The notes beneath the pieces are model-generated. The model had not been told where the DNA came from, made no database searches, and saw only the letters and a list, made by a program, of their open reading frames with translations. The translations under genes were made by a program, and so were the position numbers. Below are positions 1 through 33,875 of a DNA stretch of 64,000 nucleotides, piece by piece (within the stretch, counting starts at the first letter, position 1; each line of letters starts with the position of its first letter). The DNA comes from Lytechinus pictus (lineage: Eukaryota). The stretch is taken from positions 5,582,001-5,646,000 of the forward strand of contig NC_087251.1 of NCBI RefSeq assembly GCF_037042905.1. Reading direction: 5' to 3'.

Positions 1-17
1 ATTAGGTGATTACTCAC

Positions 18-241
18 AAACTCGATGAGTTCATATAGCAGCATTCGAATGAAGACTTCTACGGGCTTCCTGTGGTCACGGATAGGTCTCACAGAAACAT
101 CGCAATATTGATCTTTCAGTTTCCATACGAGTGCCTTGGTAGAATTGTCTCTCATATGATCTGGGTTGTAACCAAAGGTTGTAACATGATTATGGACATG
201 GCATTGACGTTTAAATTCGATTGTAATCTTTTGCACAGTTA
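18..241 (-). CDS. nAChR paralog B exon 2 (...STKALVWKLKDQYCDVSVRPIRDHRKPVEVFIRMLLYELIEF); gene continues beyond the left edge
   Basis: Open frame clearly homologous to gene A exon 2, with a GTGAGT donor at the same codon. Acceptor is either before 241 (AAG) or before 160 (CAG); both are phase 1. Confidence 0.85.
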
Positions 242-981
242 CTTGATAAAATAACAAATCAAACTAAATCAAATTGAAACTATTTTACCATGGTGTGGGG
301 GTGTGGGTGCGTGTGTATGTTAGGGTTTGTGGGAGAGAGTGTATGTGTTTATGTACTTATTTAAATATTTAATTGGTCAATTGGTCTACAAGACGAAGGG
401 GGATATATTAGGGACGATGGAAAAGGTGTCCTTGCATGGAGGGGGAAAATCATGCCAACTTTGAGGGGTTTTATGTTTTGTTTGTTTGTACAAAGGTACA
501 GTGGTATACAATTTGATATGTTATATCCATTGATGATTTTATGATTTATTGTATATTCAAATTCAAATTTATTTATTTCACTTCCATCAAACAAAAACAA
601 ATTGTATACCATATATAAACATAAATATTTGTATCCGTTGCAAAAAAAAATATATATATAATTTGCTGTCTTCAAGAAAAAGAAAAAAATATTTTAAAAA
701 TATTTATTTTTTGAGGATATTGGCTCGCAGACCAATGGAGATATGAATATTTGCTTAATAATTCTCCTAATGCATGTGTTTATGTATTGAAAGAAAGAAA
801 AAAAAATTGGAATCTCATCATTTCATCGTGAAATCAGGAGAGGTATGTATCGCCTAGCTTATCCATCAGGTCAGAATATTTTTATGTAACTCACTTAATA
901 GCTTTTTGGCAAAAAGAAGCTGCTGAAAACTGCTTATCTAATAAAAGAGAGCCAATGGAGTAAATTAGAAAGTCAAAAGCG

Positions 982-1020
982 GCCTAAGCTTTCGATCCTA
1001 GCAGAATCTTCGTCGGAGGC
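982..1020 (-). ncRNA. Minimal type I hammerhead ribozyme motif (U4C variant) in a Penelope-like pLTR fragment
   Basis: Minus strand reads GCCT-CCGACGAA-GATTCT-GCT-AGGATC-GAA-AGCT-T-AGGC; stems I and II pair, stem III is palindromic. Confidence 0.65.
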
Positions 1021-1472
1021 AAAATGAAAAAAAATGGTTAATAGCTTTTTATCAACATATTTTAAAGGCCTTTTCCAGTAGTTGGAAATAGTTCGCAGTC
1101 AATAACAGGTTTGCTAAAATGGGCGATAACCAAAACGCGACTTATGCCAGAAGAGAAAAATGACGACAAAAAGGCCAATATAAAGCTGGAAACATTAGTA
1201 TTCATCGAGGAGAGAGGTATAATTGATATCCAATTCTCAACGCAGCTCAACGTGTCAAAGAGTTTGTCACCATGGATAATGATAATGTATTCTCGATTGA
1301 ATTGACTTATCAAAGAAATCACGACACCGAAATATTTTTAATGAATTTCAAGGATAAGTGAAATTTATGAATAAGTAAAAATAAAATATAAAAAGAGATA
1401 ACCAACTAAATTTGGCATTTTATGTTTTTATTTCTTTTGATTTGTTGTATTGGAAATAATACGTAAGCCTAT

Positions 1473-1507
<35 letters not shown>

Positions 1508-2362
1508 CCGTTTTTGCAGTAGATGAATATGACTAAAGCTAGGTGACATCAATGGCAATATCGAAAATTTCACAATGTCTAGACTTTAACGTTGATTTAA
1601 GTTAACAGAAAAAATCAATTTAACATTTTAAGATATGATTTGTGAGCACATTTTATTAATTATGATTTTATATAATCATGAGGCTCATAACACCATAAAG
1701 GGGCTAATATATACTCGAATAAAAAAAATGTTTTATAAAAGTTGGGTTTGCCATTAATCATGTTAATGAGGTAAACACATAATACAAAATTATGTATTGG
1801 TGTCACAGTCGCTTTCAGAGTCATATCTATTGTAAGAAAGGTTTTAGTTACATACACCAAGTTAGAAGCATGTTGTGTTTTTAACCTTGCAAGGGTGTTG
1901 GCTGGGCGTGCACCCTCCCACGGAGCAGATGAGTTCCGTCACTTGCAATACTTTAGTTCCACCTCTCCGGGATGTGCACCCCTCATGCTCAAACCAGCCT
2001 ACGCCCTTGCCTTGCACGGTTTTTTTTTTTTTTTTTTTATTTGATCATTAAGTTGGGATGGGTGACAAAACAGTCCACCTTGGAAGTATAAAATAGTCCC
2101 CTCCCTTTTTGTCATGAAAATAAATCATCGCCACTGTTTGAATCTGACATTATTATGTAATTCAGAATAGGCCTACTCACTGTCTTGCGTATTTTTTTTT
2201 CAGAATAGTGTCACTTTTCTCTGCATGGTCTTTGTTCACCATTCATAATTCATAGTTAGTCGTTAAAACATATCTGCAGTGAGTTATTAGCTTGAATTTT
2301 CAATTGTACATTATTTGTGAACTTGTCTATTGAAGACCAAATTGATACATTATATATTCTAA

Positions 2363-3596
2363 AGCCCCAGTCACATATAGATCCCGGACCACCCCGGACC
2401 ATCCCGGATCTGATCCGGGGAGAGATCCGTGTTGGCGCCTTGGGCATCCTTGGAGGTCCGGGGTGGTCCGTGTTGGTCCTTGAACGTCCGGAAGGCCAAC
2501 ACGGCAGTTTTTGACTGTCAAAAACATCCGGCGTCATCCGTGGACTGCCGGGTTGGCAAAGCCATCCGGGATGGTCCGTGTAGGTCCGTGTGGCTGCCGT
2601 GTTGGTCCGTGTAGCTGCCGTGTAGGTCCGTGTGGCTGCCGTGTAGGTCCGTGTGGCTGCCTGGAGTATCCTTGGCAGTCCGTGTTCTTTTTTCCCATAA
2701 AATCTTTACAACGCTATTTACGTTATGAACTTTTCAGGAGTTGTTAAACAGTTGACACAAACATGCTTAATTTATTTATGATTAAATGGATGATTTAACG
2801 ATTCAGGATATTTTCTTACGCTTTGGAGATTGGCCCCAACCTAATATTTGTAAACTTAGTGCATGTATCAATATTTTTTTTTCTTTCATATTTACCCCAA
2901 CTTTGTCTGTTATTACCATTTCACATTTCCTTTTCTTAAAATAAATGTTATGTACCTGTTACATCAAAATTGTACATTAAGTTTTATACCACTGCCCTGC
3001 ATCGACAGTTATGCGTCATGACCTGGGCCTATCTTAATTTGTATTATGTTTTCTATTGACTTTGTAAATTTCTTTCCTTTACTGTGATTTCAATAAAGTG
3101 ATATCAAATCAAATCGAAATAAAATTTGTCGTTCAATATTTAAAGTACTTAACAACTACTGTTAAAACAGTAAACTGCGTTGTATAAAAAACAGCGTTTT
3201 TACTGGTTGAGGAAGTTTTAAGTTTTGATATCTTTTTTAAAAACAACATAATATAATGTTGCGACAAGGATGAGAAAAAATAAATAAATATCAGCTCATT
3301 ATTATGAGCAGATTTTCATTTGCCATGCTGGTCAATATAGCTGCCGTGTTGGTCCTTGAGCTGACGTGTTGGTCCTTGTAGCTGACGTGTTGGTCCGTGT
3401 TGGTGACGTGTAGGTCCGTGTTGACGACGTGCTCTGCCGGCATGATCCGTGTAGATCCGTGTGAAGATGCCGTGTAGATGCCGTGTTTACAGTCATCAAC
3501 GCTTAATCCGGGGCAAAACGATCCCGGACCTCCCCGGATCATGCCGGCGTTGCCGTGTTGATCCGTGAGGATCCGTGTCTTTATGTGACTGGGGCT
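2363..3596. mobile_element. Non-autonomous PIF/Harbinger-type DNA transposon
   Basis: TIR AGCCCCAGTCACATA...TATGTGACTGGGGCT, TAA on both sides, GC-rich ~21-bp subterminal repeats (GTAGGTCCGTGTGGCTGCCGT). Confidence 0.8.
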
Positions 3597-4344
3597 TAAG
3601 AAGACGGTGTGTGGAGCCGTGTTATGTGCAAACTCTGGGATATGTACAAACAACGGTGTACAGTATGTGCAAAATTTCGGCGGGATTTGTGCAAACAACG
3701 GAATTTGTGCAAACGCCACGCCGGGAAATGTGCAAATCTGTCAAAATTTATCAACAGCATCTGTGCAAACGTGACGACGGGATATGTGCAAATGAACAAT
3801 TTTTCACGGGAAATGGGCAAACCTCCGGGATATGTGCAAATCACTGTTTGTACCAATATTAAGGCTATTTCTCATGAAATGTTTCATAACATTACTGTTA
3901 AAATGAGAAACATGCCTTCAAGGGAGAAGCAACAGTGCCATCGGCAATGAAACGCTTTTCAGAGAGGCGGGGGGGGGGGGGGCACCGTGAGACTAAAATT
4001 TAAGGGACACTCAATTTTGAACACTGCCTGAGGCACTTTCAAGGCAAATGGGGCACAAGAGTATTTTTTTTGTCATTCGGGCGAGAGATGTTATACCCAC
4101 AATGTTATAACACGTATAACACATTACACACAAAAGATCGCCGGCAAATGTAATAACTCTCTTACCCACAAATGTACTCCAGACACACCATTGTGTGGAC
4201 TGGATACATTTATATATATATATATATATATATAAATGTATAAATATATATATATATAACTATATATATATATATAGACATATACAAATTAAATTGAAAT
4301 GTATCAAGTTCAGGGAAAGTGCTCGATGTTTCAACTGAAGCAGA

Positions 4345-4640
4345 GCGTGGGCAATAATGAAAAAATCCAACTTGGCTATGCGGGGAAGTGGATTCTGCAA
4401 CCTATGCTTAGACGAAAAACTCATTATCGCAACTCACAAGAAAAACTCACTCAACCGAAGGTCCGAACTAATCAGTACATGCCGTCACAAAAGAAGAAAC
4501 AAAGAACCGCCGGACCATGATATCCATTGCCCCAACCGAGGGCCACCACAAAATCCAACTAGCTTCAGTGTCCTGATGGCTGATGAGCCGAGGCGCGAAA
4601 CCATTGGTAGATCAGAGGTGAGGACAATTAATATATAGAC
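4345..4640 (+). mobile_element. Penelope-like retroelement 3' fragment (GIY-YIG C-terminus plus pLTR with hammerhead-like motif)
   Basis: WAIMKK..CNLCLDEKLII..LNRRSELISTCRH motif; CTGATGA..GAAA core at 4580-4600; (TA)n on both sides. Confidence 0.75.
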
Positions 4641-4653
4641 ATATATATATATA

Positions 4654-5566
4654 CAGCGCGTCCCCCAAAAAATATCCCTCTGATACGAGGCTGAATTACT
4701 TCCAAACTTGAAAATTATTCTCAATTAAATGTGTGGATATAGGAAGCTCATCTCATGTTGTAACTTCTATAAAAATTTATTTGGTCTCGCTTCAGTGGTT
4801 TTGAATACACAGTCTATTATGTAACAATGGCGCTTTTCAGCCTATTCCAAGTTTACGTGCATGCAGCACTGCTGTATGTTCTGCACTTTCGAGCATTATC
4901 AACTCCCACTGATCATTCTGACCAGGGAATTCCCTGATCTGACCAGGGAAATCTCCATGATCTAACCAGGCTCATCAAATCACAACATTGAGCATGTTCA
5001 AAAGGGGAAAAAAAAACATTTGACAGTTCATTTCATGTTTGATAATGAGAGATGCACAATGATGGAGACAACAGGTCATGTCTGTTTCATGCTTACTTCA
5101 AAGAATATTGCATTTCTGTTTTCATTACATTTTTTTTACTTAATAAGCTACTGAGGTCAAGTTAATTCAATGTACCCTTTTAAATGAACAAAAAATCAAT
5201 TTGTTTCACGGGTAAAGTTCCCTTACGCAAAATGTAACTTGTAGATTCCCCTTCATTGTTCACCTTATTTTACTCATCCATCATTCACAATTTCTTTCAA
5301 GTTGGTGCACTGATTCCCCTTAATCATGTTAATCATCAAACAAACTTCATTTTTTAAGTTTCTTGTCCTAAACATGCCCAAGATAATGATTTGAAGAGTC
5401 TCGATAGGATTAGGGAAGTGTCCATGCTCAGATCCTGGATGTAAAACTGGGTGTTCACATGCCATAGACAATGAAGAAATACATCAATGCTGCAAACTTG
5501 GAATGGGCTAAAATGCATCACTGTTACGTAACAAAGTGTGTATTCAAAACCACTGAAGCGAGACCG
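4654..5566. mobile_element. Tc1/mariner-type MITE with truncated right arm
   Basis: TA-CAG start; GGTCTCGCTTCAGTGGTTTTGAATACAC (~4783) is inverted at ~5538-5566. Confidence 0.55.
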
Positions 5567-5647
5567 AAAGCTTGTGAATAAACTTGAACTGAACCCCGGC
5601 TACGTTTCATTGCTTTATTCTCGCTGTATCTACATATAGCATCCTCT

Positions 5648-5688
<41 letters not shown>

Positions 5689-6327
5689 TATCACTTTATT
5701 TCAATATTCATAAAGGATCAGATGACATATAAAATCAAATAATTACATAGTAGTTTACAAACACAATGAACAAAGGAAATAAAAGTAGCCCATGCGGGTC
5801 CTGGCTTATTACTGCCGAGGCAGGACATACAGTATAGAACATAATACAAGATAGAAAAGAGAACAGAACAATATATTATATATAGCAAAGATCTTGGTTG
5901 CGATTAATCTCGTTATAAATTATTACATTCTGTAGTCAAAATAAATAAATCATGTAAACATATGAACAAGCGAGTTACTCTATATAGTTATTAATTTTAT
6001 CATCGTCGTCATTAATATTGTTTATTTGTATAACTGCTTTTATTGATATTTTACTATATTATTATTATTGTTAATATTATTGTTTTATTTTCATTTTGTT
6101 ATTATCATATTGTTGTCATTATTATTATATCTATTATGAATATTATCATCATTGTCAGAAGTATAATTATTAATAACAATACTTTAATACTATTATTATT
6201 GTCATCAACATTCAACGTGATACTCATTATTTATTTTTTAACGTAATCAGTATTACCACTAATGTAGAGAAGTTGCCAGCTTTCATCATGGTCCAAATTT
6301 CTATTAACTTAATTGCTGTTATATGAA

Positions 6328-6370
<43 letters not shown>

Positions 6371-6415
6371 ATGAGATGAGGCCAACTCAAAAGATGACGC
6401 AGGACACCATTCTTA

Positions 6416-6453
6416 GCTTTAGCTTTCGTCTTTATTAAGACTTCGTCAGAAGC
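6416..6453 (-). ncRNA. Minimal type I hammerhead ribozyme (inverted copy, sense to host nAChR pre-mRNA)
   Basis: Exact reverse complement of 6571-6608. Confidence 0.8.
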
Positions 6454-6570
6454 GTCTGAAAAATATAAGGAGATACAACATCCAAGTTTGTCTTGCACAT
6501 AAATGATTGATGATAATTCATTGATGTGCAAGACAAACTTGGATGTTGTATCTCCTTATATTTTTCAGAC

Positions 6571-6608
6571 GCTTCTGACGAAGTCTTAATAAAGACGAAA
6601 GCTAAAGC
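6571..6608 (+). ncRNA. Minimal type I hammerhead ribozyme
   Basis: GCTT-CTGACGAA-GTCTT-AATA-AAGAC-GAA-AGCT-A-AAGC; intact core, predicted cleavage after 6604. Confidence 0.8.
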
Positions 6609-6706
6609 TAAGAATGGTGTCCTGCGTCATCTTTTGAGTTGGCCTCATCTCATGTTTCATACTCACATTTCAAGAGCGTTTGGTACAAGTAAACTTGTCA
6701 TCACAT

Positions 6707-6744
<38 letters not shown>

Positions 6745-6745
<1 letters not shown>

Positions 6746-8620
6746 TGGTCTTTACCCAAGACCCGGTTATTTCAAAACTTTAAAAAAATCTTAAAAACTA
6801 AGACCCACTATCGTTTGGAATAACATGGATATAGAGTGTAGTCTTGTAATACTCCAGACCCGGTCATTTAACAATTTGAAGATCCTTCTAAACTAAGATC
6901 CTGTACTAAAGCATATGTAAAGAGCATATTAAAAAAAAAGTAAAAACTGCAACACCTCACCGTCTACCAAATTAAGACCCCGTAAAAATGAATATAGAAT
7001 GTAGTCTTTACCCCAGACCCTGTTATATCAACAATAGCAAAAAATCAAATTTAAGACCCCACCGTCTCATTCCTGTGGAATAAGATGAGTATAAAGTGTA
7101 GTCTTTTACTCCAGACCGGGTGATTAAACAAATTCAAAATTATTAAAGGGGAATCCAGCCTTTGCCATAAAATGTTGTGTTGGGAAGGAGAAAAATAAAT
7201 TAAAAAGAATGGCGAAAGTTTGAAAGAAATCGGACAAGGAATAGGAAAGTTATAGCTGCTTTTAAATTGAGATCACTAATAGTATGTAGATTTCAAATTG
7301 GCAACTGGGTAAGTAAATTATGACAAGGGGCAAGGACAACTTTCCCATAGGCCATGTACTTTATTATCAGGGATTTGTGGTTTTCTCCTAAGTACCCATT
7401 CCCCTGGGGCAGTAATCTAAATATAATCCAGGTAGTATATTGTTTTAAGTCCTTATAAAAGAAAAATATAATTTGAAATAAAACTTTTTGGGAAAATGAC
7501 ATTTTAGCCACAATATGTATTGGAGTACATGGAAGAGTAGTCCTTGCCTTACATCACTATGACATCCCATATGCGGCCAATTTGAAGTCTCCATGGGTAT
7601 AGTGATTACCAATATTTACAACTTTTAAAAAATCATAACTTTCTTGTTGTTTGTCCAATATTGTTCAAACTTTCACCTATCAACTTGTCTGATTTTTCTT
7701 TTTCTTATAAAAACAAGTTTTTATTTGGGTTGGATTCCCCTTTAAAGCCCCGCCATCTTCCACTACTAAGACTCTGTAATAAAGAACGTGTATATAACGT
7801 ATTCTCAATTCTCCAGACCCGTTTATTTGAACAAATCTTCAAGACCCCACAGTCTCATTTCTGTGAAAAAAAATGGATATACAGTGCAGTCTTTACTCCA
7901 GACCGGTGAGTAAAAAACCTTCAAAATTAAGACCCCAAACTAAGACTCTGTTATAAAGCGGGGGGTGGTTCTTATTTTTATTTGGCAACCAGTCAATTTG
8001 ACTATTTTCGCCATCATAAGGGTGCATAACGTAGTCTTTACTCCAGACCCGTTTAAAAAAAGTACGTTATAATCTTTAAAAATAAGACCCTGTAATAAAG
8101 CATGGATATAAGAGCATAGTCTTTACCCCATACGCTGTTATATAAAAAAATTAGGAGATCTTCAATTTGAAGACCCCACCGTCTCATCCCTGTGAAAAAA
8201 ATATAGAGTGTAGTCTTTACTCCAAACCTGGTGATTAAAAAAAACTTCCATACTAAGACCCCATCATCTTCCGAACTAAAAGTTTATAATAAAGCACGGG
8301 TGTATAGCATAGCCTTTACTCCATACCCATTTATTAAAAAAATACACTGTACACTGTATACCCACTGTATAATTACACTGTATACCCATGTGCTACATTG
8401 CAGGGTCTTAGAATTGAAGATGACGGGATTGAAGTTTCGAATATTCTTGATTTTTTTTTCAAATGACTGGGTCTGGTGAAAAGAATACACTCTATATCCA
8501 TATGCTTGATTACATGGCAATGGTTTAGAAGATGGTGAGGTCTAAGTTTTAAAGTTTATTTCCCTTTCTTAACCACCGGGTCTTGTGTAAAGACTACGCT
8601 TTAATCTAGCTCAGGTATAG
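6745..8620. repeat. Degenerate tandem array (GTAGTCTTTACTCCAGACCC / AAGACCCC units) with an inverted distal arm; foldback-like
   Basis: Motifs recur from 6745 to 8330; reverse-complement units at ~8400-8620. Confidence 0.6.
7147..7741. mobile_element. TTAA-target MITE (Kolobok/piggyBac-type)
   Basis: TTAA|AGGGGAATCC...GGATTCCCCT|TTAA. Confidence 0.85.
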
Positions 8621-8889
8621 CGTTAATCCTGTTGCTTGGAAGAGTATATGGCCAAGAGTATAAAAAAAGTAGACTAATAACATTAATATTGTATGGTACG
8701 GTCGCATTGGGTCTGGAAAAGGAGACTGCCAGCATTCGTTTCGTATGGATTTGTCACAAATTAAAGGGTCTAAAAAGTAGACTAGCACCCTTTGTCTCAT
8801 ACGGAATGATCCACTAGGTCTGAGAAAATAGATAAACATTCATTCATACCTAATAGACACATTTTAAGGACAATGCCATATATTAAACA

Positions 8890-10380
8890 GATATGTATCT
8901 CACTGATGAAATAGTGCGAGCGCGAAGTGCGAGCTTAAATTTTGTTATATTCCGACCTAAAAATGGACATTATAATCAACTTTTTGTAACCATGATACGT
9001 ATCTGTCTCGCTAAACAATGCGAGCGCAAAGCGCGAGCTGAAATTTTTGTATATATTGACCCCAAACAGGGAGATTTTAAGGACTATATTTAAGGAATTC
9101 ATTACATTTCTCACCACAGTCGGTTACACTTCGTAATTCCGAAGGTTCGTAATTCCGAAGGTTCTTTATTCCGAAGGTTCGTAATTCCGAAACACGTAAA
9201 TTGCCTATACCTCGATGTTCGTTAATCCGAAAACGTAAAAGGGTTCGTTAATCCGAACATTTGTGGCGTTATTCCGAAGGTTCGTTATTCCGAAGGTTCG
9301 ATAATCCGAAAACGAAATAAGGTTCGATGTTCCGAAGGTTCGTTAATCCGAAAACGAAATAAGGTTCGTTGTTCCGAAGGTTCGTTAATCCGAAAACGAA
9401 ATAAGGTTCGTTGTTCCGAAGGTTCGTTAGTCCGAAAACGAAATAAGGTTCGTTAATCATTTCGTTTTCGGACTAACGAACCTTAGGAATTACGAACCTC
9501 ATTTCGTTTTCGGATTAACGAACCTTCGGAATTACGAACCTCACTTCGTTTTCGGACTAACGAACCTTCGAAATTACGAACCTTCGGAAATACGAACCTT
9601 CGGAATAACGAACCTTCGGAATATCCGAACCTTCGGAATAACGAAGCTTCGGAATTACGAATGTATGCGAGAATTGCACATGAATCACTCGTAATCATTG
9701 TAATCATGATATTAACATACGCATTTTAATAATCAAATATTGCGAGCGCGAAGCGCAAGCTGAAACTTTAGGAAATTCAGACCTGAAAAGGGGCATTCTT
9801 AAGCTTGTTTGTAGTAATTCACTAAGACCGAGCGCGTAGCGCGAGCTAAAAATTTTTGATATTGAGATCAGAAAAAGGGACATTTTAAGGACTGATTCTA
9901 GGAACTCATGGAGAGCAGACATATCTCACCAATCCACTAATGCGAACATAAGCACGGACAAGAAATGTTTTGTATTAAGACCTAACATGTGGCAATCACT
10001 TTAAGTAGTCATGAAAAAGAAGCATAGATTCTATTATTGTACATAAAATAATAATAACTCGAAGTGCGAGGAAGTATATTGAAAACGGGAGGTTTTAGTA
10101 CAACAGGATTATATATCTCGTTAAAGTTTAACAGACAATGCGAGCACCAGGAACAATGAAGACATAGGCCCTAATCAAATTATGTTTCATAAAGTTATGA
10201 AAAAAATCTTTCTTATGTAATAGAACATAATTGTAATATAACTTTATAATGAACAATAATTTATTTTTCCCATTACGTTTCTCTTCCTCTCTCCCTCTTT
10301 TTCTCCTTTTCCACGTTTTTTTTTTGGTCAGCCGATGGGGGGACGTGCCCCATGCCCCCCCCCCCCCCCCCGTAGTTACA
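8890..10380. mobile_element. Remnant of hAT-like element with CGAGCGCGAAGCGCGAGC repeats
   Basis: Same motif as 45.6-47.4 kb in the opposite orientation; ends in a C-run followed by GTAGTTAC. Confidence 0.5.
9121..9669. mobile_element. Foldback element built from TCCGAAGGTTCG tandem repeats
   Basis: Left arm of TTCCGAAGGTTCG units, centre ~9458, right arm of reverse-complement units. Confidence 0.75.
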
Positions 10381-10549
10381 ACTTCTGATGAAATCTGGAA
10401 ATGATATCAACAGATCAAGTTCAATGTGTGGATCAGTGGAAATCATGCTTGCCTCCCCCACCCCCTTAATTAATTGCCCCATGCAGTGTTCAAAACAGTA
10501 CTGAATGTCCATGGTGCCACCCTGGCCTCTTTGAAAGACGTTTCATTGC

Positions 10550-10950
10550 CGGTGGTCAGAGGTAAAAATGGCAGAGGTAATAATGGCAGAGATAAAAATG
10601 GCAGAGGTAAAAATGGTAGAGGTAAAAATGGCAGAGGTAAAAATGGCAGAAGTAAAAATGGCAGAGGTAAAAATGGCAGGGGTAAAAATGGCAGAGGTAA
10701 AAATGGCAGAGGTAAAAATGGCAGATGTAAAAATGGCAGAGGTAATAATGGCAGAGGTAAAAATGGCAGAGGTAAAAATGGCAGAGGTAAAAATGGCAGA
10801 AGTAAAAATGGCAGAGGTAAAAATGGCAGGGGTAAAAATGGCAAAGGTAAAAATGGCAGAGGTAAAAATGGCAGATGTAAAAATGGCAGAGGTAATAATG
10901 GCAGAGGTAAAATGGCAGGGGTTATAATGGGAGAGGTAAAAATTACAGCT
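10550..10950 (+). repeat. 15-bp minisatellite (GGCAGAGGTAAAAAT)n
   Basis: ~25 near-perfect units. Confidence 0.95.
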
Positions 10951-11027
10951 CTTGGTAAAATATGGCCAGTCTTAAACCCCCATGCAATGAATTGTCAAAA
11001 AGCCCCCGCATGTACTACATACATTAA

Positions 11028-11630
11028 AGGTCAAGTCCACCCCAGAAAAATGTTGATTTGAATAAATAGAGAAAAATCAAACTAGCATAATGCTGAAAAT
11101 TTCATCAAAATCGGATGTAAAATAAGAAAGTTATGACATTTGAAAGTTTCGCTTATTTTTCACAAAACAGTGATATGCACAACTCAGTGACATGCAAATG
11201 AGACATACGATGATGTCCCTCACTCACTTTTTCTTTTGTTTTTTATTGTTTGAATTATACAATATTTCATTTTTTACAGATTTGACAAAAAGAACCAACT
11301 TGACTGAAGCATATAATATTAATCAATGGTAATTCCACATGTTCAGGGAGGAATTAATCGCTGTTTCACTTGACAATGAGGAAAAAATTAGAATATCTAA
11401 TATTTCATGTAATAAAATACAAAAGAAATAGTGAGTGGATGATATCGTCAGTCTCCTCATTTGCATATCAACCAGGATGTGAATATAACTGTTTTGTGAA
11501 ATTAAGCGAAACTTTAAAATGTCATAACTTTCTTGCTTTACATCCGATTTTGATGAAATTTTCAATGTTATGCTTGTTGGAATTTTCTTTTTTTATTCAA
11601 ATCAACTTTTTGTTGGGTTGGACTTGTCCT
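11028..11630. mobile_element. TTAA-target MITE (Kolobok-type)
   Basis: TTAA|AGGTCAAGTCCACCC...GGGTTGGACTTGTCCT|TTAA; long imperfect arms. Confidence 0.85.
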
Positions 11631-12929
11631 TTAAATAAGAAATGCATGTCACGGTTAGGCATTTCATCATCATTATGTCTTCATCGGCCTAACTATTTAC
11701 GAATTCGTTGGAGGTGTACCGTGAACGCTTTTTAAAAAGAAATCAAACGACAGACATTTTTTCATTCAATTTATCAGGAGCAAAATGAAACTGCACTATT
11801 CTCATTCATCATTTTATAACATTCCTTTTTGCCTGGCTGGTTTTTTATCTCTAAATTTTTGCCAGGTTTACCGATGCAAAAAGGAGGAAGAGTAGACATA
11901 AGAGAGATGGAGAGACAGAGAGGGTTCAGGGGCGGGGAAAAACATAGAGAACATAGCGGGGCAAGCTTAGACGTTGAAATTGTCACGAATGATTGTGGTT
12001 AAATATTATGTTCTTATTTGTAATGTCGTCTGTACTATTCTTTTTAAATATTTGAATGACAATAAGCATGCGTTCCCAGGCTTGGCACTGAATATGTTAC
12101 TGAATATGAAAATCAATAATAATCTTGTTTTGACTGGTAAACCAATTTGGGGTCGATCGAGGGGGACCGTCTTGTTCAGATTCTTTGCATAAAAGAAGAC
12201 CCTGAACCTTTACCACTGCATCCAATATGATATAAACGTCTTGATTGTCATTCCCCCTTGGAAGCGGAAGTGCTGTTGGGTATTTTGTACACTAAGCAGC
12301 ACCCTCTTGGTAATTAGCTTGGTATGCTTAAATGTAGAGATTTGATACAAATCTCTGCTATTTTTCAAACAGAAGAAAAAACATTGTTTATTATCTAATT
12401 GTTATTATTTTTATGGTAATTATTTTTCTGACCTAAAAGAACTTCATTTAGTTAAAATAATTTTTTTGTGTCATTTTCCCCCTTAACCAAATCCCCTTTC
12501 ATTTTGGAGTGCAAACTTTTTTTTCTCGGCTTTTTAACAAACCAGCACCCCATATCTCTTTCATTTTTGCCTCTGCCATCTTTACCTTTGCCATTTTCAA
12601 CTCCGCCATTTTTTACACTGTTCGAAAATTTCCACCTAAAAATCAAAAATTCCTGCAACAGAGTCTGGAGAACACCTGTAATCTTACTGCACTGTGTAAT
12701 CTTACATGCATTTGTGTTAAAAAATTTACTTTGTGCGTGTACCCTTACAAATTTATTGTAATAAAACTGTTTTCCCCTTTTTTTAAACATCTGTTCTGTA
12801 AAATTGTAGAAAAATTGTGGAAAATCCTCCTGTTATTATGATATACAAAATTATTTGTTTTTTTTTCTGTAAGACCTGTTTTTTATTTTTTCTTCTGTAG
12901 AATCTACTGTTTTTTCTAATAATGTACCT

Positions 12930-13470
12930 CGGCCACTTTTATCCCTGCCATTATCATATCTTCCATTTTTACCTCTTGTCAATTATGCCTCTGCTCTTTT
13001 TACCTCTGCCGTTTTTACCTCTGCCATTATTACCTCTGCCATTATTACCTCTGCCATTTTTACCTCTGCCATTTTTATCTCTGCCATTTTTACCTCTGCC
13101 ATAATTACCTCTGCCATTTTTACTTCTGCCATTTTTACCTCTGCCATTTTACCTCTGCCATTATTACCTCTGCCATTTTTACCTCTGCCACTTTTACCTC
13201 TGCCATTTTTACCTCTGCCATTATTACCTCTGCCATTTTTACCTCTGCTATTTTTACCTCTGCCATTTTACCTCTGCCATTATTACCTCTGCCATTTTCA
13301 CCTCTGCCACTTTTACCTCTGCCATTTTTACCTCTGCCATTTTTACCTCTTCCATTTTTACCTCTGCCATTATTACCTCTGCCATTTTTACTTCTGCCAT
13401 TTTTACCTCTGCCATTTTCACCTCTGCCATTTTTACCTCTGCCATTATTACCTCTGCCATTTTTACCTGG
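12930..13470 (-). repeat. 15-bp minisatellite, inverted relative to 10550-10950
   Basis: (ATTTTTACCTCTGCC)n; degenerate units also at 12560-12612. Confidence 0.95.
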
Positions 13471-13757
13471 CACCGTTTGCACATATCCCGGCGTTTGCAC
13501 AAAACACGGCTCCACACGGTGTTTAAAATTGAAAGTTTGACGGAGGAAAAGCTACACATTTTCTAAATATTGAAACAAATTTGACAGGTTGCGTGTGAAA
13601 TATGATGAAGATTGATCTCATACAAATTCAAAATATCCTTAAGAAATATCGATTGTAAAAACAATATATTGAAAGAAAAAAATCAATGATAATTGAATTC
13701 AATTTTTGCCTTGTTCCAGGTCTTATTTGAACAACGACGTAGAAAGAGCATCCTTAC

Positions 13758-13830
13758 CCTTGTGAGAATAAACATGTGTAGACAAGCAGAGAACATGATA
13801 AATCACGTACAGTATCAGTGACGATTCCAT
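13758..13830 (-). CDS. Probable nAChR paralog B coding exon 1 (signal peptide MESSLILYVIYHVLCLSTHVYSHK)
   Basis: 73 nt and phase 1, the same as gene A exon 1; AGG|GTAAGG donor; in-frame upstream ATG at 13845. A possible 5'UTR exon ends at 14221 (AAG|GTAAGG). Confidence 0.6.
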
Positions 13831-15239
13831 CCCTTTGCCTTGCATGTATTCATGAATCTACTTCAAGTTCAAAATATGCTTGAGATACCACTGTCTGATA
13901 CATGTCTGTATAAGAAAATAAAATAATTAATACCACAATCTCACTCAGTTTCATATCTTCTTATTATTTCCGTATGATGTATAATCGTAAAAGAGAAATC
14001 CACATGACCCAATTTTTTCATGATAAGCACTTCCACATTCATGATGGTACGAATTTCGGCCTTGTTAGCAATTTGTATGAAATATTCAGCATATATTAAT
14101 GATATTGTGATCATTGTACAACCACTAAAGATATCTCCATATTTCTAAATATTCAGGGAAAGTCCATTAACTTTGTCCTCGAGAACACTTACTAAGTGTA
14201 GTTACAGTTAAATTCCTTACCTTTGCCTGATGATTATTAGTAGCAGTGATGGTTTTCCAGCGATACAACATTCATGTCGGACATAATTATCAATTGCAAA
14301 CAGAAATCTATCGAGGCCCGAAAAGGGATTTCAAAATTATTTTTGGTTTGACTTATATATACGATCTGCCGTGATTGCGAACAATGTTCAATTTCACCTG
14401 GGAAATTATTATAAGGCTGAACTTCTGTGACTTGCAGGAAGCGTCGTGTCGAGCGTGCTTTTCGAGAGTGAAAATGACAAATACAAATTTGCACCAAAGA
14501 GACATTAAGACGCGTGCCACCAAGTGCTGACACTTCAGTAATCTTCGTCGCCCCTCCCCCTTCTTCAACATCACCACCACCCAGGCCTACCACCACCACT
14601 CCAATGGGGGCTATGAGCCAAGAAATTCGACTGACACAGCATGGTGTATCGGTGGCGGATCTAGCTTTTTGCTAAGCGGGGGGTTTGACACGTTGGTTTG
14701 ACTCAATAAAGATGAGCTACGACGTAATGCGTCCTACCCCCCCCCCCCCCTCGTAAATCCGCCACCGTTCTGCTTGTGCGACTCTTGTAAATAGGGAAGG
14801 GGTGCTAGTGTTTGATCCCACACTCCCTTTTTTTATATTAGGGAGGCCAATTAAGATGCGGGTTTAAACTCCTACCCCCCTCCCTCTCCCCTTAGATCCG
14901 CAACTGCGTATTAAGCAAATTTCTAAAAAGTCACAAGCGAGGCAAAAAAGGAGATATTTTGACCTAGTTATAATCGAATTCTTATTTCGAGATAGATGTA
15001 CATTTTGACCAAGCATTATTAGTCTATATTTTAACTTCACAGCGAAGAGAATATCCGGTTGAAAGTTTGAACTATGATGTGAAGATCAAATAAAAAATAG
15101 AAGTGTTCCAAAGGCGATATGACGTGGCTGGAATTCAATTTAGACGATTTATTGATTAGATATTGGAGAGTAAATTTGGGTAAAAATATAGCAATATATG
15201 CTATAGTCTATTAGCGCCAGGCATTTCATTATTTTGCCC

Positions 15240-15432
15240 TCATTATTTTTACAGCAGAAGCGTTGTGAGGTAGGTGTGAAGACATCTGAGCCTGTCACTG
15301 GGTTTGACCGTTATATTCAGTCAAAGAGGCTGATCGGGGTTTTGTTTTTATCAAAGTGGAGACAGAGTGAGGATTCGAACTCACAACCTTGTGATTATGA
15401 GTCCAATGCTCTCACCACTGGACCATGTGCCC
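15240..15432 (-). mobile_element. tRNA-derived SINE (head at 15360-15432)
   Basis: A box TGGTCCAGTGG, B box GTTCGAATCC, CAT in the anticodon position, poor acceptor stem. Confidence 0.65.
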
Positions 15433-15715: not shown

Positions 15716-15850
15716 TACTACTTCTACTCGAGTATCATTTTAAAGCTGCATTTCATTCTACATTGCCTTGTATCAAGGAGATCGTAAAGTTACTATTGCA
15801 ATAATCCAGTTTGGAACTCGAGTATTTGGGACAAAGTTCGATTAGTTGTG

Positions 15851-16049
15851 CACTGCAAAAACTCCGGTGTTGATTTAACACCAGCCCAGAATATATATAT
15901 GTCCACACCAGAGAAGTGTTAAACAACACCAGTTTTGTTTCGGTCTAACATCGGTTTGATTCCAAACTGGTGTTGTTTCAATACTTCTCTGGTGTGGACA
16001 AATATAGATTCCGGGCTGGTGTTAAATCAACACCGGATTTTTTGCAGTG
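15851..16049. mobile_element. EnSpm/CACTA-type MITE
   Basis: TG|CACTGCAAAAACTCCGGTG...CACCGGATTTTTTGCAGTG|TG (2-bp TSD); related copy at 41695-42104. Confidence 0.8.
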
Positions 16050-16099
16050 TGTATAAACTAGGCGTTGATCGGGTGAACGTGTGTTTACAAGCGAGCAAC

Positions 16100-21171: not shown

Positions 21172-21430
21172 TCACTTTAGAAAACTGATAAGAGCAAACA
21201 TGACATTTCCTATCATAGCTAAACAAAGAATGGTTCCGCAAAAAGAATCGAAGGCTAAAGCAAGCTGTCTCCAAATAAACTGGTTTACATCTTTACTTTC
21301 CAAGTCGACTGCAGGTCGCCGAAATTCTTCTGTCCTCAATTCTGTGTCTAGAATAGTGGAAGCTGTGTTCCCATTGGTGATGACCTCTTCGTTCCTGGTA
21401 ACTTTATTTTCTTGTAAGATGTACAGCTTC
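21172..21430 (-). CDS. nAChR gene A exon 8 (MA helix, M4, stop)
   Basis: WRQLALAFDSFCGTILCLAMIGNVMFALISFLK*; phase-2 CAG acceptor. Confidence 0.88.
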
Positions 21431-24400
21431 CTGTACACACAGGAGGAAATATAAACTGTTTATTTGATCTTTCAGACGTAAAGATAAAACCTGTACCATG
21501 ACAAAGTCTCCATGATAATAAATGATAATGCAATTCAGATATTTGCTAGTTGTATTTACTGAATGTTTACTTCAGTAAGTTTTAGTTATATCAATCAGAA
21601 TTAGTTTTAAAGTCTATATCAGGGATACTCCTTAATAAAATTTCACAGAGTCTTCATATTCATAATCATATCTAAGCATTCAGCTATAATACTTATAAGT
21701 AGTTTTTTTATTCAGTTATGTTTTCGTGTTGATATAGTATTTAAATTTCAAACGATGTTTGGCAATCCATACCACTGTTGGTTCTAGTGGAGCAATGACA
21801 GCCTATATGATCATCATTAGACCTTAGTGCTGCGTTCGACACTATTGACCATAGTATACTTGCTAAAATATTAGAAACTGATTTTGGGATAACAGACTCT
21901 GCTTTGTCTTGGTTGCAGTCTTACCTTTCCGATAGGCAGCAACAAATATCAATTGGTGACATTACCTCAAAGAAATTTGACGTTAGATGGGGCATTCCCC
22001 AAGGGTCCGGGCTCGGACCTCTCCTTTTTCCCCTCTATTCTAGTAGACTTTTTTCGGTTATCAAAGCACACTCTGAAAAAATATATTGTCACTGCTATGC
22101 AGATGACACTCAATTATACATTTCCTTCAGCCCAGTCAGGGAACAAGAACAGTCCTGTGTTTTGGCTCTTGAACACTGTCTACAGGAACTTCGTAGATGG
22201 ATGTTGAGCAGTAAGTTGAAACTTAATGAAAGCAAAACTGAGTTTCTTTTCATTGGAACACCTAGACAAGTGTCTAAACTAAATATAGATTGCATAACAG
22301 TTGGAAATACTGTAGTCAAGCAGACCATGGTTGCAAGGAACCTTGGTGTCTGGTTTGACTCGCAGCTAAACATGGAAACCCACATATCCAAAACATGCAA
22401 AACTGTCTTCTATCATCTCTACAACTTACGTCATATCCGAAAATACTTAAGCAGCACATGTATTAATACACTGGTCCATGCATTTGTAACAAGCAAATTG
22501 GATTATTGTAATGGATTACTTTTTGGCTTACCAGATTCTCAGATAAACAAATTACAGCGTGTTCAAAATGCATGTGCCAGACTCATTTGTAATTCCCCAA
22601 ATTTTCCCATGTAAGGCCCCTACTCCACGATCTACATTGGCTTCCAGTACGTCAGCGAATCAAATTCAAAATACTGCTCCTAACATATAAGATACTACAT
22701 GACATGGCCCCCACCTATCTCAGTGAACTCCTTAAATTAAAATCACCCACCCAGTCTTACGGGCTTCGTAGTTCCCATGACACAATGCTCCTCAGTCTCC
22801 CACCATGTAAAACAAAGATTACACCAGGTGACCGTGCCTTTATCAGTGCTGCACCCAAACTCTGGAATAGTCTCTCTTCCTCAATAAGAAATGCATCCTC
22901 TGTCAACTTATTTAAAACTAAACTGAAATCCCACCTCTTTCAAGAGAGTTTTTAATAAATAAGTCACTTTTTTGTTATGTATTTTGTAGAAATAATTAAT
23001 CTTTACTTATTTTTCTTCGATTAATTTAGCGAACTTAAATTTACTTCTAAAATATTTACGTATCCTGTTAATAATTGTTTTTCTGCTTATCTGTTATGTA
23101 TTGTAATGCGCAGTTGAGTATATCTAAATAGAAATTGCGCAATGTAAATTTACAATTATTATTATTATTATTCTAATGGTGGTTATTTTCTAGAAATACT
23201 TATTACGGATGGTGGGTTCATTATTTCTTGAACTATATGTCTTGGGACTTCTCGAGCCGATAAACTATTTTAACATGTTTAGACTGCCCTAATTTCTGGC
23301 TCATAAGACATCTGCTTAAGTAATGTATAAGGACATGCCTTTTGGTTAATAAAATGTACACCCGTACCCCACGTATGAACTGATTAACCATCTGGGGCCT
23401 TGTTGCAGGCTTCATCCATCACTAAAATAAAATGCAAATCTCAAATGCGAGCTTCTATTCTTTATCAGCTTTTTCGGGAAATACCAGTGTATAAGCCCAC
23501 CTATTAACACCTAATAATCTTAATCTTAGGTATGCCATGAGAAGATACCAACGGGTCACAGTGATTCAGTTCGCTTTTCGTCTCCAACGCACAGGTGACG
23601 CCACACATTATTATTAAAAAAAAAGAAAATACCGTAGCACTTTGATGCAGTTCACCAAATGATATAAACCTACCTAATGTAGCTTCTAGTTCCAGATCTG
23701 GAGAACCAAGGCAAAAAAAGTTTAATGACCCATCGTGGAGGCTTGGTGTTGGTATCATGGTGGTAGAGACGTAAAACAATGACTGATAAAAACACAGCAC
23801 ATCCACTGAGGATGATCAGCATGAAGAAACAGGTGACTGTATGAGAGAGAGAGAGGATGGGCGAAAGAGGGATTGGCTTGACAGAATATAAGGGGTGAAG
23901 ATGGAGACGAAATAGAAGAAAGAGATACACAGGTGGAAAAGAATGTACGGGAAATGAGTAAAATTCGTTTTCTGTTTGCCTATACAATATTTTAATTGCA
24001 CCATAGAATTTGGAGATTCAGATAATCTAGGATGTCATGTAGATACGTCACAAAGATTTGTTTTACTTATATTTATTTCCATTCGGTCAAAAATTCGATA
24101 TACCGACACAGTGGATAGGCACATATTAGACAAATTGTCTTTACACAATTATAATGAATATAGATAATGGGAAAAGACCTCTCACTACATGCACGGTGTA
24201 TTATAATATTTAGGTACCTAGGATAGATCTTGGTTCTCCAATGGGCGGCATCTTGTCCGCCACTAACTGCTGAAAGAGTGTAAGCGCCAGGAGGTTGGTG
24301 ACGGTGAAGGTCACCTTCTCTCCTGAATCAGGATGCAACCAGAATCCAACCAGCATAAGAGCTGTCAGAAAGACGGCAGGTACCACTACATTGGTAAGAA

Positions 24401-26648
24401 AGAAACCGGACTCCCTTTGGAAAGTTAGTTGGTACTCAATATGGTCATTGGGGTAGGGACAACAAAGGTACTTGATACTTCGATTGGTTGCCGTGAAGTC
24501 GACCAAAGACCAGATACCATTCTTGACATAGCGAGCTTGGGAGGCATCTACGTCATCCTTGGCGAAGAAGCGCATCTGTTGTTAAAGGGGTGACAAAGAA
24601 CAATAAATTATATAATCGGAGAATACGTGTGTTTAACGTTCACTTATAACTGTCCATATATTAAGTTACATAAAGTAACACTTAACAAAAATATGTTGAT
24701 AAGACCAGTAGGTCATTTTGCCTTAACATCATGCAAATCCAAGGAGTGGAACTGTATCCTTTTTTCTATTCTCGAATGGGCGAGCCAACCATATCCTAGA
24801 TACTTTATATATTCAGCTATTGTTGTTATTTTTATTATTATTATTATCATCATCATCATTATTATTTTTATTATCATCATTGTTATTATCATTATTATTA
24901 TTATAATCATTATCATTATTATTTATTATTATCATTATTATTATTATTACTATCATCATCATTATTTTTATTATCATCATTGTTATTATCATCATTATTA
25001 TAATTATTATCATTATTATTAATCATTATCATTATTATTATTATTATTACTTATTTTCACCAAAATGTATCATTTTTACTGTTCTACTCACTACAATTTT
25101 TTTTTTACATTTTCTGATGTTTCCCTTTAAAGCGGCAATGGCTGTGGTGTTTATCGTTTTAGTTGAACTTCGATGATTTGAATATTGTCAGACATATTGA
25201 TAGTGAATATCTTTACTACTAAAAGACAAAGTTTATCGATAAAAAAGCCACAAAATATATTCATAAAAGTCGATAGGCGCCTTGTCAAGGATTGCCCGTT
25301 CCACGCTTCACCCGAGAATGCGATAGTCTCTCCAACTATTTGTTTTATTCGTTCATTCTTATACATATTAGATGATCTAGACCTTCCGTTGAAATCAATC
25401 ATCAGCCTTTTGTCAGAGATATCTTCAATTATTCAGGCTGCAACTGTGATAAACATCTCCATAGACCTTGATCTTCCTCCTATTATAACCAAGAAAGATA
25501 TGAACTAATCTATAATCGTTTGATATTTATGGCCTACCAGTTATCAAAATTGAAAAATCAATAATTAATAGCCATTTATTTTGTGTTCCAGTGAACCGAT
25601 TTCATTGGATGGTTTTCTAACGAAAACAATTTTGCTTACTAAAATGTAGTACGATTTTTGTTAGAGTGTTATTTAATTTTCAAACGATCTTTTCGAAATA
25701 AGAAGAACGGGTATTATTCGTTTTTTTTTTTTTTTCAAATCACCAGTGATTTTTATCACAAGAAGACAAAAAAGTCAAACGTAACGGTTGAATGCTGATT
25801 TTTTTTTCAGGACTCGTACCTTACTTTCATCGAGCGTCCAGGGATAAAATGTTAAGACACACTTCTGGACATCAAATGGATAATATTGTATGTTCATCTT
25901 ACAAGCACTGGTAGTAATTGCTGGAAATAGCCAATCCATTGCCCCCGTGTATTGGACTATAACATAGGTCTCAGCTTCTGGTAGGCTGATGAAATTACGA
26001 TCAATGCTGTATAAAAAAAAAAGTGAAATTGATTCCTGTGATTTATAGTCACACCGCATTACAGCCGTGAAACCCATGGCCCTGGGAAGCGGGAATGCAG
26101 AGTGTATGCAGCACCCCCTGGAAATCTGGTAGGTGTGCTAAAATGAACGACATTTTGTAGGAAAACCCATTTTGTTATATTTATATCAGCGTATACTCCA
26201 CCCTAACTTAATTATTAATACTACTGACGAAAGAAGTTTTTGATACGGAATGGTGTGACAGAATGTTAGACCTTCATGTCGAATATTGCGTGTAAATTGA
26301 CTGGAAAATGAGAATGATACCATTGAGAACAAAAGATGCCAGGGATTCGGTTATTTCGTCCATCTTAAACCCTTTTTCATCTCAAATCATCTACTTTTTT
26401 CCGCGTTGCATCCCCCCTTTCCTATCCTGTATGCACGCGGATCATAGTTCTATACAAAATTAATATAATATTTAAAAGCGTTGTTGAGAAATGAGAAGAA
26501 ATCATTATAACCTGCACAAACGAAAACTAGTTAAATCGATTTTTAAAAAATAACGAATGTGGTATACCTTACTAATTTGCCTATAAATTGTAAACAATCA
26601 ATGGAAAGGCATGTATAAATCAAAGGGCTGCATTGATAATTCTACAGT

Positions 26649-32600: not shown

Positions 32601-33875
32601 AGAATACCACCCGATAACGGGTTACTGTTAATAACATACCATGGCATCTAAGTGGGCATTAAATTTATTCATCTATACTTTGGATTATTTTTTAAAATTC
32701 AGGAATTGTGTAGGGGGGGTAATCACAGGATATATATACTGTATCTCATTACATATAATGTAACATCAACGCCATTGTGTTGAATATGTCTAATTGGCGC
32801 CTTGCTATACGCTTACTGCCAAATAAAAAAAATGAATTACATCCAAATCCCCTGCGACATTATGCCTCATCACATTAAATTACCTCAATGCTAGTTTATG
32901 AGTGGATTTGTGAAAATTATTAGGACACTAACCCGACCATCTAATATGCTTGAAGTTGTATCTTTTCTTAATCAAGAACACGACTTTATGAAGTGCTCTT
33001 CGTGTGAGCGGGTCCATCATTGGATCTTTCAGAGTCTCTCACGATATCAAATTCAATGAAATATCAGTTAATAACACTGTACTTTAACTTAACCACGTCA
33101 AATGTTTCATGTTTGAGGTTACACGACATTTCTCTGGCGACAATTGCTCCGGTCTTAACTTTTTCTAAGATATATAAGTTTAGGGTTAGGGTTGCAATAG
33201 GGTTTTATATTAGGCTTGGGGTATAGTGTTAAAACCAGGGTTGAAGTTGGTAATTCCGTTAGTGCGTGGAATTAAGAGCGGAGCAAAATGTCATGGAACT
33301 GCGTCTGAGAGTGTCGTTCACACGATGGCCCTTAACTTCGAATTCAAGGTTCCTCGTGTGAACAAGTCTTAAGTTACAACATAAATTTTTGTGCAACAAG
33401 CCCAATATGAACTTACCAGTTTGACGAGTTCATAAAGAAGCATTCTGAAGAATACCTCGACAGGTTTGGTGTGATTTTTGACAGGTCTAACCGACGTATC
33501 CCCATAGTTGGACAAGAGCCTGGAAACAAGTTCTTTCTCTGTCGTTGTCGTGTTTGGTGATGAGCAGTCGGTCCTATCGGATGCCTGGACTACAAAAATC
33601 AATAAAATAATAATCTAAAGAATCTACGACATTGATATCATTGCAGTCACAGCAGAGTCAGTTCAATTCAATTATTTTTTCAAGCATTGTTATCATTAAT
33701 AGTACTAGTAGAAGTAGTAACAGTAGTAGTAGAAAGGAAGAAGAAGTAGCAGTAGCAGCAGTAGTAGTAGTAGTAGTAGTGGTAGTAGTAGCAGTAGTAG
33801 TAGTATAGTAGCAGTAGTAGTAGTAGTAATAATAGTCGTAGTAATAGTAGTAGTAGTAATAATAGTAGTAGTAGC

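What the first reader, a model, noticed from the sequence alone, without database searches (positions are those of the whole stretch)
18..13845. Hidden second nAChR gene: tandem paralog not in the ORF track
Seen: 241-18 (minus) encodes SVRPIRDHRKPVEVFIRMLLYELIEF, against SVRPVKNHTKPVEVFFRMLLYELVKL in gene A, with the donor at the same codon. A 73-nt phase-1 signal-peptide exon at 13830-13758 has the same length and phase as gene A exon 1. Inference: this is a head-to-tail, lineage-specific cluster of divergent Cys-loop receptors that continues to the left.
Basis: partly seen in the sequence, partly recalled or inferred. Interest (0 to 1): 0.7.

Follow-up and report, generated by a model that had tools for sequence, protein, structure and literature searches.

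The report
Old sea-urchin acetylcholine-receptor-like gene cluster
The window holds the first two coding exons of a real second acetylcholine-receptor-like ion-channel gene, already listed in databases without its first exon, in an old sea-urchin gene cluster whose members have lost much of the usual acetylcholine-binding pocket.

Summary
The second gene (B) is real. Window 155-18 is 46/46 identical to the start of Lytechinus pictus RefSeq XP_054757890, a model that begins at an internal Met and lacks a signal peptide. The exon at 13845/13830-13758 is its first coding exon: it matches residues 1-29 of the L. variegatus orthologue at 27/29. The acceptor is 160, not 241 (gap-free against two orthologues; 241 inserts 27 residues). 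No RNA junction reads were obtained. Gene A is 100% identical to XP_054759064.2. So B is not hidden, and the duplication is not recent. A and B are 52% identical, have orthologues or positional counterparts in Strongylocentrotus and Diadema, and a Lytechinus-only pairing is rejected (AU p=1.5e-42). Genes C and D probably follow to the left (inferred from accessions, contig lengths and fused models). The cluster is not alpha9/alpha10 (AU p=9e-36). It belongs to an echinoderm-wide clade that appears to be the published 'Ambulacraria-specific' channel group. A and B keep the Cys-loop, vicinal cysteines and cation-type pore entry, but have lost loop-A Tyr and loop-D Trp. They are probably acetylcholine-poor partner subunits, possibly receptors for another chemical.

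The parts
13758..13845 (-). Gene B first coding exon (signal peptide); ATG at 13845, or at 13830 in the better context (73 nt); phase-1 GT donor after 13758
   Evidence: 27/29 identical to L. variegatus XP_041467660.1 residues 1-29; 11/24 to the S. purpuratus orthologue, same length. Signal-peptide character judged from hydrophobicity only
161..13757 (-). Gene B intron 1 (13,597 nt); holds repeats, no Cys-loop coding sequence
   Evidence: tblastn of 35 family proteins at E<=0.05 finds nothing between the two exons; length
18..160 (-). Gene B exon 2 (143 nt; N-terminal helix and beta-1); CAG acceptor before 160, phase-0 GT donor after 18
   Evidence: 155-18 is 46/46 identical to XP_054757890.1/.2; the 13758-to-160 join aligns without gaps to two orthologues (73/77 and 44/72)
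161..241 (-). Open-frame extension to an AAG at 241: rejected as the normal acceptor (intron)
   Evidence: Would insert 27 residues that neither orthologue has
1..17 (-). Start of gene B intron 2; exons 3 onward lie left of the window
   Evidence: GT donor; XP_054757890 continues with a 15-residue segment that matches gene A's 45-nt exon 3 at 60%
13906..14220 (-). Possible 5' UTR intron of gene B (315 nt), by eye only
   Evidence: Donor-like site at 14220, pyrimidine tract plus CAG at 13906; untested
40871..40943 (-). Gene A coding exon 1 (73 nt; RefSeq starts at an in-frame ATG at 41003)
33417..33589 (-). Gene A exon 2
27864..27908 (-). Gene A exon 3 (45 nt, loop D)
27561..27670 (-). Gene A exon 4 (loop A)
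25820..26006 (-). Gene A exon 5 (Cys-loop, loop B)
24218..24575 (-). Gene A exon 6 (loop C, M1, M2)
23674..23836 (-). Gene A exon 7 (M3)
21172..21430 (-). Gene A exon 8 (M4, stop), 7.3 kb upstream of gene B's first coding exon
   Evidence: The eight exons give 455 aa, no internal stop, all GT-AG, 100% identical to XP_054759064.2

Best explanation
Shown (about 0.95): gene B is an intact pentameric Cys-loop channel subunit gene directly downstream of gene A on the same strand. It is made from the signal-peptide exon at 13845/13830-13758, spliced to 160-18 and to exons left of the window. Strongly inferred: it is the second member of a tandem array (A, B, C and, at least in Diadema, D) kept since the diadematid-camarodont split, within an echinoderm expansion outside alpha7, alpha9/10 and muscle-type receptors. 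Inferred mechanism: B enters the ER, assembles into a pentamer and lines a cation-type pore. Its pocket lacks loop-A Tyr (Glu) and loop-D Trp (Asn) and has Phe at both loop-C Tyr positions, so it most likely binds acetylcholine poorly alone. It probably works as a partner subunit in mixed pentamers with clade mates that keep more of the pocket (D, or C), tuning a cholinergic cation channel.
For: Gene structure. Intact orthologues at 95.7% (L. variegatus) and 80.2% (S. purpuratus). Pfam PF02931 + PF02932; four helical membrane segments and the nAChR fold (best E 1.7e-32). Cys-loop C162-C176, vicinal C227-C228 and the GEK motif are conserved. Pocket: in the 15 A/B/E rows loop A is non-aromatic in 15 of 15 (D 8, E 5, V 2), loop D is Asn in 14 of 15 (one gap), loop-B Trp is kept in 15 of 15; among the 135 rows outside the echinoderm clade loop D is Trp in 89 and loop A is Tyr in 78. 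D keeps Tyr, Trp, Tyr, CC, Phe and a loop-D Tyr, and is 94% identical between L. pictus and Diadema over 152 aa, against 59-60% for C and A. In H. leucospilota only one of three tandem, co-expressed members of the expanded group answered acetylcholine when expressed alone (PMC10120082, section 11).
Against: There are no expression, co-expression or current data for A or B. Loss of both faces of the pocket also fits a new ligand, and the same replacements (Asn; Asp/Glu) have been kept across A and B lineages, which looks like selection on a pocket rather than decay. The 15 rows include alleles and close orthologues, so they are not independent. A member of the wider group does respond to 10 uM acetylcholine, and its pocket residues were not available to me. 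The L. pictus D record is a 168-aa fragment whose chromosome is not given. The gene order left of the window is inferred, not read.
Confidence: 0.45

Rival explanations
1. A and B are ligand-shifted receptors: cation channels gated by a chemical other than acetylcholine, perhaps environmental cues sensed by tube feet, spines or pedicellariae, convergent with cephalopod chemotactile receptors.
For: Tandem expansion of nAChR-derived genes with varied pocket residues on a near-constant M2; conserved Asn at loop D and an acid at loop A in A/B; long stem branch (0.58) to the A/B/E clade; precedent in octopus and squid (PMC11526382, passages).
Against: No tissue expression data; vicinal cysteines, loop-B Trp and a loop-C aromatic are kept; orthologues are stable between species (95% and 80%) rather than turning over fast; the one tested relative group acts in acetylcholine-triggered organ expulsion.
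Confidence: 0.27
2. B is an ordinary, lower-affinity acetylcholine- or choline-gated receptor that can work as a homomer.
For: Alpha-type vicinal cysteines, loop-B Trp and two conservative Tyr-to-Phe changes; Hl-07243 of the expanded group responds to 10 uM acetylcholine alone.
Against: Two of the five aromatic positions are polar or acidic; these five residues form the canonical site (PMC10338036, passage).
Confidence: 0.22
3. Exon 160-18 is an isolated pseudo-exon, or B uses another first exon (as the L. pictus RefSeq model, starting at Met 155, would imply).
For: Both L. pictus RefSeq versions start at Met 155; no junction reads were obtained here.
Against: Full 437-aa open model in the same species; exon 1 conserved and colinear in two other species; a protein starting at Met 155 has no signal peptide.
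Confidence: 0.04
4. A and B arose by a recent, Lytechinus-specific tandem duplication.
For: Adjacent, same strand, same exon-1 length and phase.
Against: 52.5% protein identity; no similarity between the A and B regions by blastn except dispersed repeats; AU test p=1.5e-42; A has orthologues in Diadema.
Confidence: 0.02

Closest known systems
RefSeq XP_054757890.1/.2 (L. pictus 'alpha-9-like') and XP_041467660.1 (L. variegatus 'alpha-10-like')
   Same: This is gene B: 46/46 identity over exon 2 from Met 155; the L. variegatus model includes the exon-1 peptide.
   Different: The L. pictus model lacks exon 1 and so the signal peptide; the alpha9/10 name is a best-hit label, not orthology.
'Ambulacraria-specific' nAChR-like LGIC group of Holothuria leucospilota (PMC10120082)
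   Same: Expanded, tandemly arranged, separate from typical nAChRs. Acanthaster XP_022083253, listed in that paper's tree in the block before Hl-07241-07243, falls with A and B on the non-canonical side of my trees.
   Different: The paper tested only sea-cucumber genes; the parts I read do not describe this urchin cluster or its pocket. Its topology and the SPU-to-XP mapping were not visible to me.
Vertebrate alpha9/alpha10 and alpha7 nAChR subunits
   Same: Fold, Cys-loop, vicinal cysteines, GEK pore motif.
   Different: 31-35% identity; separate clade; the reference rows have all five aromatic residues, B has one identical and A two.
Cephalopod chemotactile receptors (PMC11526382, passages)
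   Same: nAChR-derived lineage expansion with altered pocket: a possible working analogy.
   Different: No chemotactile receptor is among the 60 best PDB sequence hits or the 50 best Foldseek ranks shown; no sensory expression or ligand is known for A or B; kinship not tested.
Vertebrate accessory subunits alpha5 and beta3 (recalled, no call)
   Same: Subunits with a degenerate site that work only in mixed pentamers.
   Different: Not related by descent as far as tested; analogy only.

Membership tests
Cys-loop pentameric ligand-gated ion channel | Ligand-binding domain plus membrane domain | tested here: met
   PF02931 E 1.7e-43 and PF02932 E 5.7e-12 for L. pictus B, above cut-offs; fold match to alpha7, E 1.7e-32
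Cys-loop pentameric ligand-gated ion channel | Two cysteines 13 residues apart with the conserved proline | tested here: met
   C162, P170, C176 invariant in 16 of 16 rows
Cys-loop pentameric ligand-gated ion channel | Four membrane helices | tested here: met
   Helices 245-267, 274-297, 307-333, 422-465 in the model of the L. variegatus orthologue, mean pLDDT 70
Cys-loop pentameric ligand-gated ion channel | N-terminal signal peptide | tested here: inconclusive
   Hydrophobic exon-1 peptide, conserved in three species; no signal-peptide predictor was run
Cys-loop pentameric ligand-gated ion channel | Assembles as a pentamer and gates ions | not testable with these tools
   Needs expression and recording
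nAChR alpha-type subunit | Vicinal cysteines in loop C | tested here: met
   CC in 15 of 15 A/B/E rows
nAChR alpha-type subunit | Cation-type GEK motif before M2 | tested here: met
   G274 E275 K276 invariant in 16 of 16 rows; its meaning for selectivity is recalled
Canonical acetylcholine-binding nAChR | Aromatic box: loop A Tyr, loop B Trp, two loop C Tyr, loop D Trp | tested here: not met
   B: E, W, F, F, N; A: D, W, Y, N, N; the alpha7-like and alpha9-like reference rows have all five (references checked)
Canonical acetylcholine-binding nAChR | Opens to acetylcholine | not testable with these tools
   No functional data found for these genes
alpha9/alpha10 subfamily | Forms a clade with alpha9/10 | tested here: not met
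   AU test, log-likelihood 101.4 lower, p=9.1e-36 (group chosen from the RefSeq label, tested after the tree was seen)
Ambulacraria-specific nAChR-like LGIC group (PMC10120082) | Groups with that clade's members, apart from typical nAChRs | tested here: inconclusive
   Groups with XP_022083253 (FastTree 0.997, 60 rows; 96/88). That accession is in the paper's leaf list near Hl-07241-3, but the list gives no topology and only one shared accession was found
Cephalopod chemotactile receptors | Acetylcholine-insensitive, gated by poorly soluble environmental molecules, in sensory epithelium | not testable with these tools
   No expression or ligand data
Cephalopod chemotactile receptors | Descent from the cephalopod CR clade | not tested
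   No identified CR sequence was in my trees

The most novel reading that the evidence does not exclude
The A-B-C-D cluster and its kin are a sea-urchin family of contact chemoreceptors built from nicotinic receptors independently of the octopus chemotactile receptors. The channel is conserved, the pocket is rebuilt (loop-D Asn, loop-A acid), and the receptors are expressed in tube feet, spines or pedicellariae and gated by environmental compounds.
Probability: 0.2. Interest if true: 0.75.

Novelty: new member of a known kind. Interest (0 to 1): 0.3.

Why it matters
The certain gain is small: a corrected 5' end for an annotated gene (restoring its signal peptide, needed for any expression test) and a warning that its 'alpha9/alpha10-like' name is wrong. 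The larger point is that sea urchins keep an old tandem array of nicotinic-like subunits with a rebuilt ligand pocket. Nine literature searches (open-access library only) showed no description of it. If these are receptors for chemicals other than acetylcholine, they would be a deuterostome parallel to cephalopod chemotactile receptors in a tractable lab animal.

Tried and rejected
No whole genome is held for this window, so the sequence left of position 1 could not be read; exon positions and gene order there are inferred. No read lay was obtained, so the 13758-160 junction, strand and expression remain untested by RNA. Acceptor 241 rejected. Recent duplication rejected. Alpha9/10 orthology rejected. 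A mis-set exon-5 end gave a frameshifted gene A translation; corrected. First exon-3 search was too strict and empty; found. Pfam finds nothing in exon 1 or exon 2 alone. ESM Atlas gave only generic Cys-loop clusters. RefSeq accessions of the S. purpuratus genes are not in the four supplements of PMC10120082, which use SPU ids. Sea-urchin 'Chrna9_4' and 'Chrna9' expression passages could not be tied to these genes and were not used. Three look-ups of earlier scan findings returned nothing. No tRNA gene in the window. No complex prediction was run.
Full report
Observation. Its match to gene A exon 2 is far above chance: local score 125, against 38 for the next best of 2828 six-frame segments (gene A itself aside) and 46 for the best of 2000 shuffles; 53 of 78 bases are identical over the last 26 codons. 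Both exons end in phase 0 at the same codon before a GT donor. The 73-nt phase-1 exon at 13830-13758 is also there. On length and phase alone it was weak evidence: a scan of both strands gave 9 candidates, three of 73 nt, and it shares only 24 of 73 bases with A exon 1.

Gene A. Eight exons between 40943 and 21172, all GT-AG, give 455 residues without an internal stop, 100% identical to Lytechinus pictus RefSeq XP_054759064.2. Upstream of it the window holds a cornichon gene and no further Cys-loop exon (tblastn of 35 family proteins), so A is the right-hand end of the array within this window.

Gene B. A search with the exon-2 frame returned one protein of 2 candidates, XP_054757890.1 of L. 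pictus, 437 aa. Window 155-18 is 46/46 identical to both versions of this record, which start at the internal Met at 155 and have no signal peptide. The L. variegatus orthologue XP_041467660.1 (468 aa, 95.7% identical) begins with 29 residues that match 13845-13759 at 27/29; the S. purpuratus orthologue matches 13830-13759 at 11/24 with the same length. Joining 13758 to 160 aligns without a gap to both (73/77 and 44/72); joining to 241 inserts 27 residues. So exon 1 is right, the acceptor is 160, intron 1 is 13,597 nt, and the L. pictus model is short at its 5' end. This rests on other species' gene models; no RNA junction evidence was obtained. The rest of B lies left of the window, which I could not read.

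The cluster. L. pictus A, B and a third gene C (XP_063957812.1) are on record for contigs of the same length, 49,738,939. The same holds for L. variegatus (45,571,165) and S. purpuratus (45,225,044). The older L. pictus C model, XP_054757891.1, is the accession right after B. In Diadema, two gene models fuse a B-position subunit to a following C subunit (XP_071493894.1, XP_072173292.1), which implies head-to-tail order. A, B-position and a fourth gene D share a 1.7-Mb scaffold in D. antillarum (XP_071507887...886...884) and a 52.4-Mb contig in D. setosum. The order A-B-C-D is therefore inferred from accessions, contig lengths and fused models, not from coordinates; the chromosome of the L. pictus D fragment is not given.

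Age and kinship. A and B are 52.5% identical over 406 aligned residues. An IQ-TREE tree of 42 rows chosen from the 195 of a FastTree survey was built (the survey left out 18 near-duplicate or aberrant models, 7 proteins with too short a domain, one of them among the 18, and 2 without a hit). In it, A groups with Diadema A (100/98); B groups with an unlinked paralogue E (98/99); the Diadema B-position gene joins B/E only weakly (84/54); A+B+E is 100/100; and all 20 urchin rows form one clade (99/98). A Lytechinus-only A+B clade is rejected (p-AU 1.5e-42), as is union with alpha9/10-like rows (p-AU 9.1e-36). Both groups came from prior labels but were tested after the tree was seen; reference rows were checked against PDB alpha9 and alpha7. 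The wider clade (60 rows, 0.997) holds sea star, brittle star, crinoid, sea cucumber and urchin proteins among the 10 of its representatives that I looked up. One is Acanthaster XP_022083253, which PMC10120082 lists in the block of leaves before Hl-07241-07243 and twelve S. purpuratus genes (Dataset S3, labels only). That paper (section 11 read in full; passages) describes an expanded Ambulacraria-specific group in which Hl-07243 responded to 10 uM acetylcholine while its tandem neighbours Hl-07241 and Hl-07242 did not at 1 mM. The window's genes most likely belong to this group. The age of the Diadema-camarodont split, roughly 200-250 million years, is recalled, not computed.

Anatomy and mechanism. 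B has both Pfam domains, the nicotinic fold with four membrane helices, the Cys-loop, vicinal loop-C cysteines and the GEK motif of cation channels (meaning of the motif recalled). The five-residue aromatic site (PMC10338036, passages) is not intact. B has Glu at loop A, Trp at loop B, Phe and Phe in loop C, and Asn at loop D; A has Asp, Trp, Tyr, Asn, Asn, though a Tyr two positions earlier in its loop C might stand in. Across the 15 A/B/E rows loop A is never aromatic and loop D is Asn in 14 (one gap). None of the 24 filled rows of the 28-row urchin clade has Trp at loop D, against 89 of 135 rows outside the echinoderm clade. These rows are related, so the counts describe the clade and are not independent trials. 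D keeps most of the site and is 94% identical between L. pictus and Diadema over 152 residues, against 59-60% for C and A. I read B as an acetylcholine-poor partner subunit of mixed cation channels (0.45). Rivals are a receptor for another chemical, as in cephalopod chemotactile receptors (0.27; PMC11526382, passages), and a plain low-affinity acetylcholine or choline receptor (0.22). All functional steps are inference.

Literature. Nine searches of the open-access library found the Holothuria paper and one preprint citing it (PMC13228809, one passage), but no account of this urchin cluster or its pocket. Subscription papers are largely missing from the library, figures are not held, and bioRxiv supplements are closed, so absence is weak. 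PMC8634148 (passages) and three urchin expression papers (passages) added nothing that could be tied to these genes.

Verdict. Novelty: new member of a known kind. Interest 0.3; 0.75 if the chemoreceptor reading (probability 0.2) holds.

Noticed in passing
window 10557-10948 and 12925-13468: Two arrays of a 15-bp unit in opposite orientation (up to 95% complementary) enclose about 2 kb in gene B intron 1; no target-site duplication found. Looks like a foldback element; resemblance to sea-urchin TU elements is recalled, untested.
   Followed up: partly
window 9244-9661: Imperfect palindrome built of 16- and 42-bp units, probably a small non-autonomous element.
   Followed up: no
window 21811-22611 (+): Reverse-transcriptase fragment (PF00078, E 3e-21) in gene A's last intron, opposite strand; a short repeat at 21692-22108 recurs at 15847-16050.
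   Followed up: partly
window 53327-62294 (-): Cornichon gene upstream of gene A: three exons match PF03311; the likely first exon near 62100 gave no Pfam hit.
   Followed up: partly
window 63477-63998 (-): Open frame of 174 aa running off the window, by eye like the end of a LINE reverse-transcriptase ORF; no Pfam hit.
   Followed up: no
window 15360-15430 (-): tRNA-like stretch by eye, single copy in the window, not called by ARAGORN.
   Followed up: partly
protein P0054 (XP_054759537.1) against P0013: Cluster gene D is 94% identical between L. pictus and Diadema over 152 aa while A and C are about 60%: unusually strong constraint, or a record worth checking.
   Followed up: partly
proteins P0002, P0033, P0009, P0008: Public models of this cluster are often faulty: two Diadema models fuse neighbours, one S. 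purpuratus B model carries a long insertion, another lacks its N-terminus.
   Followed up: partly
window 41003 (-): RefSeq starts gene A at an in-frame ATG 60 nt upstream of 40943; the L. variegatus model starts at the 40943 equivalent.
   Followed up: no
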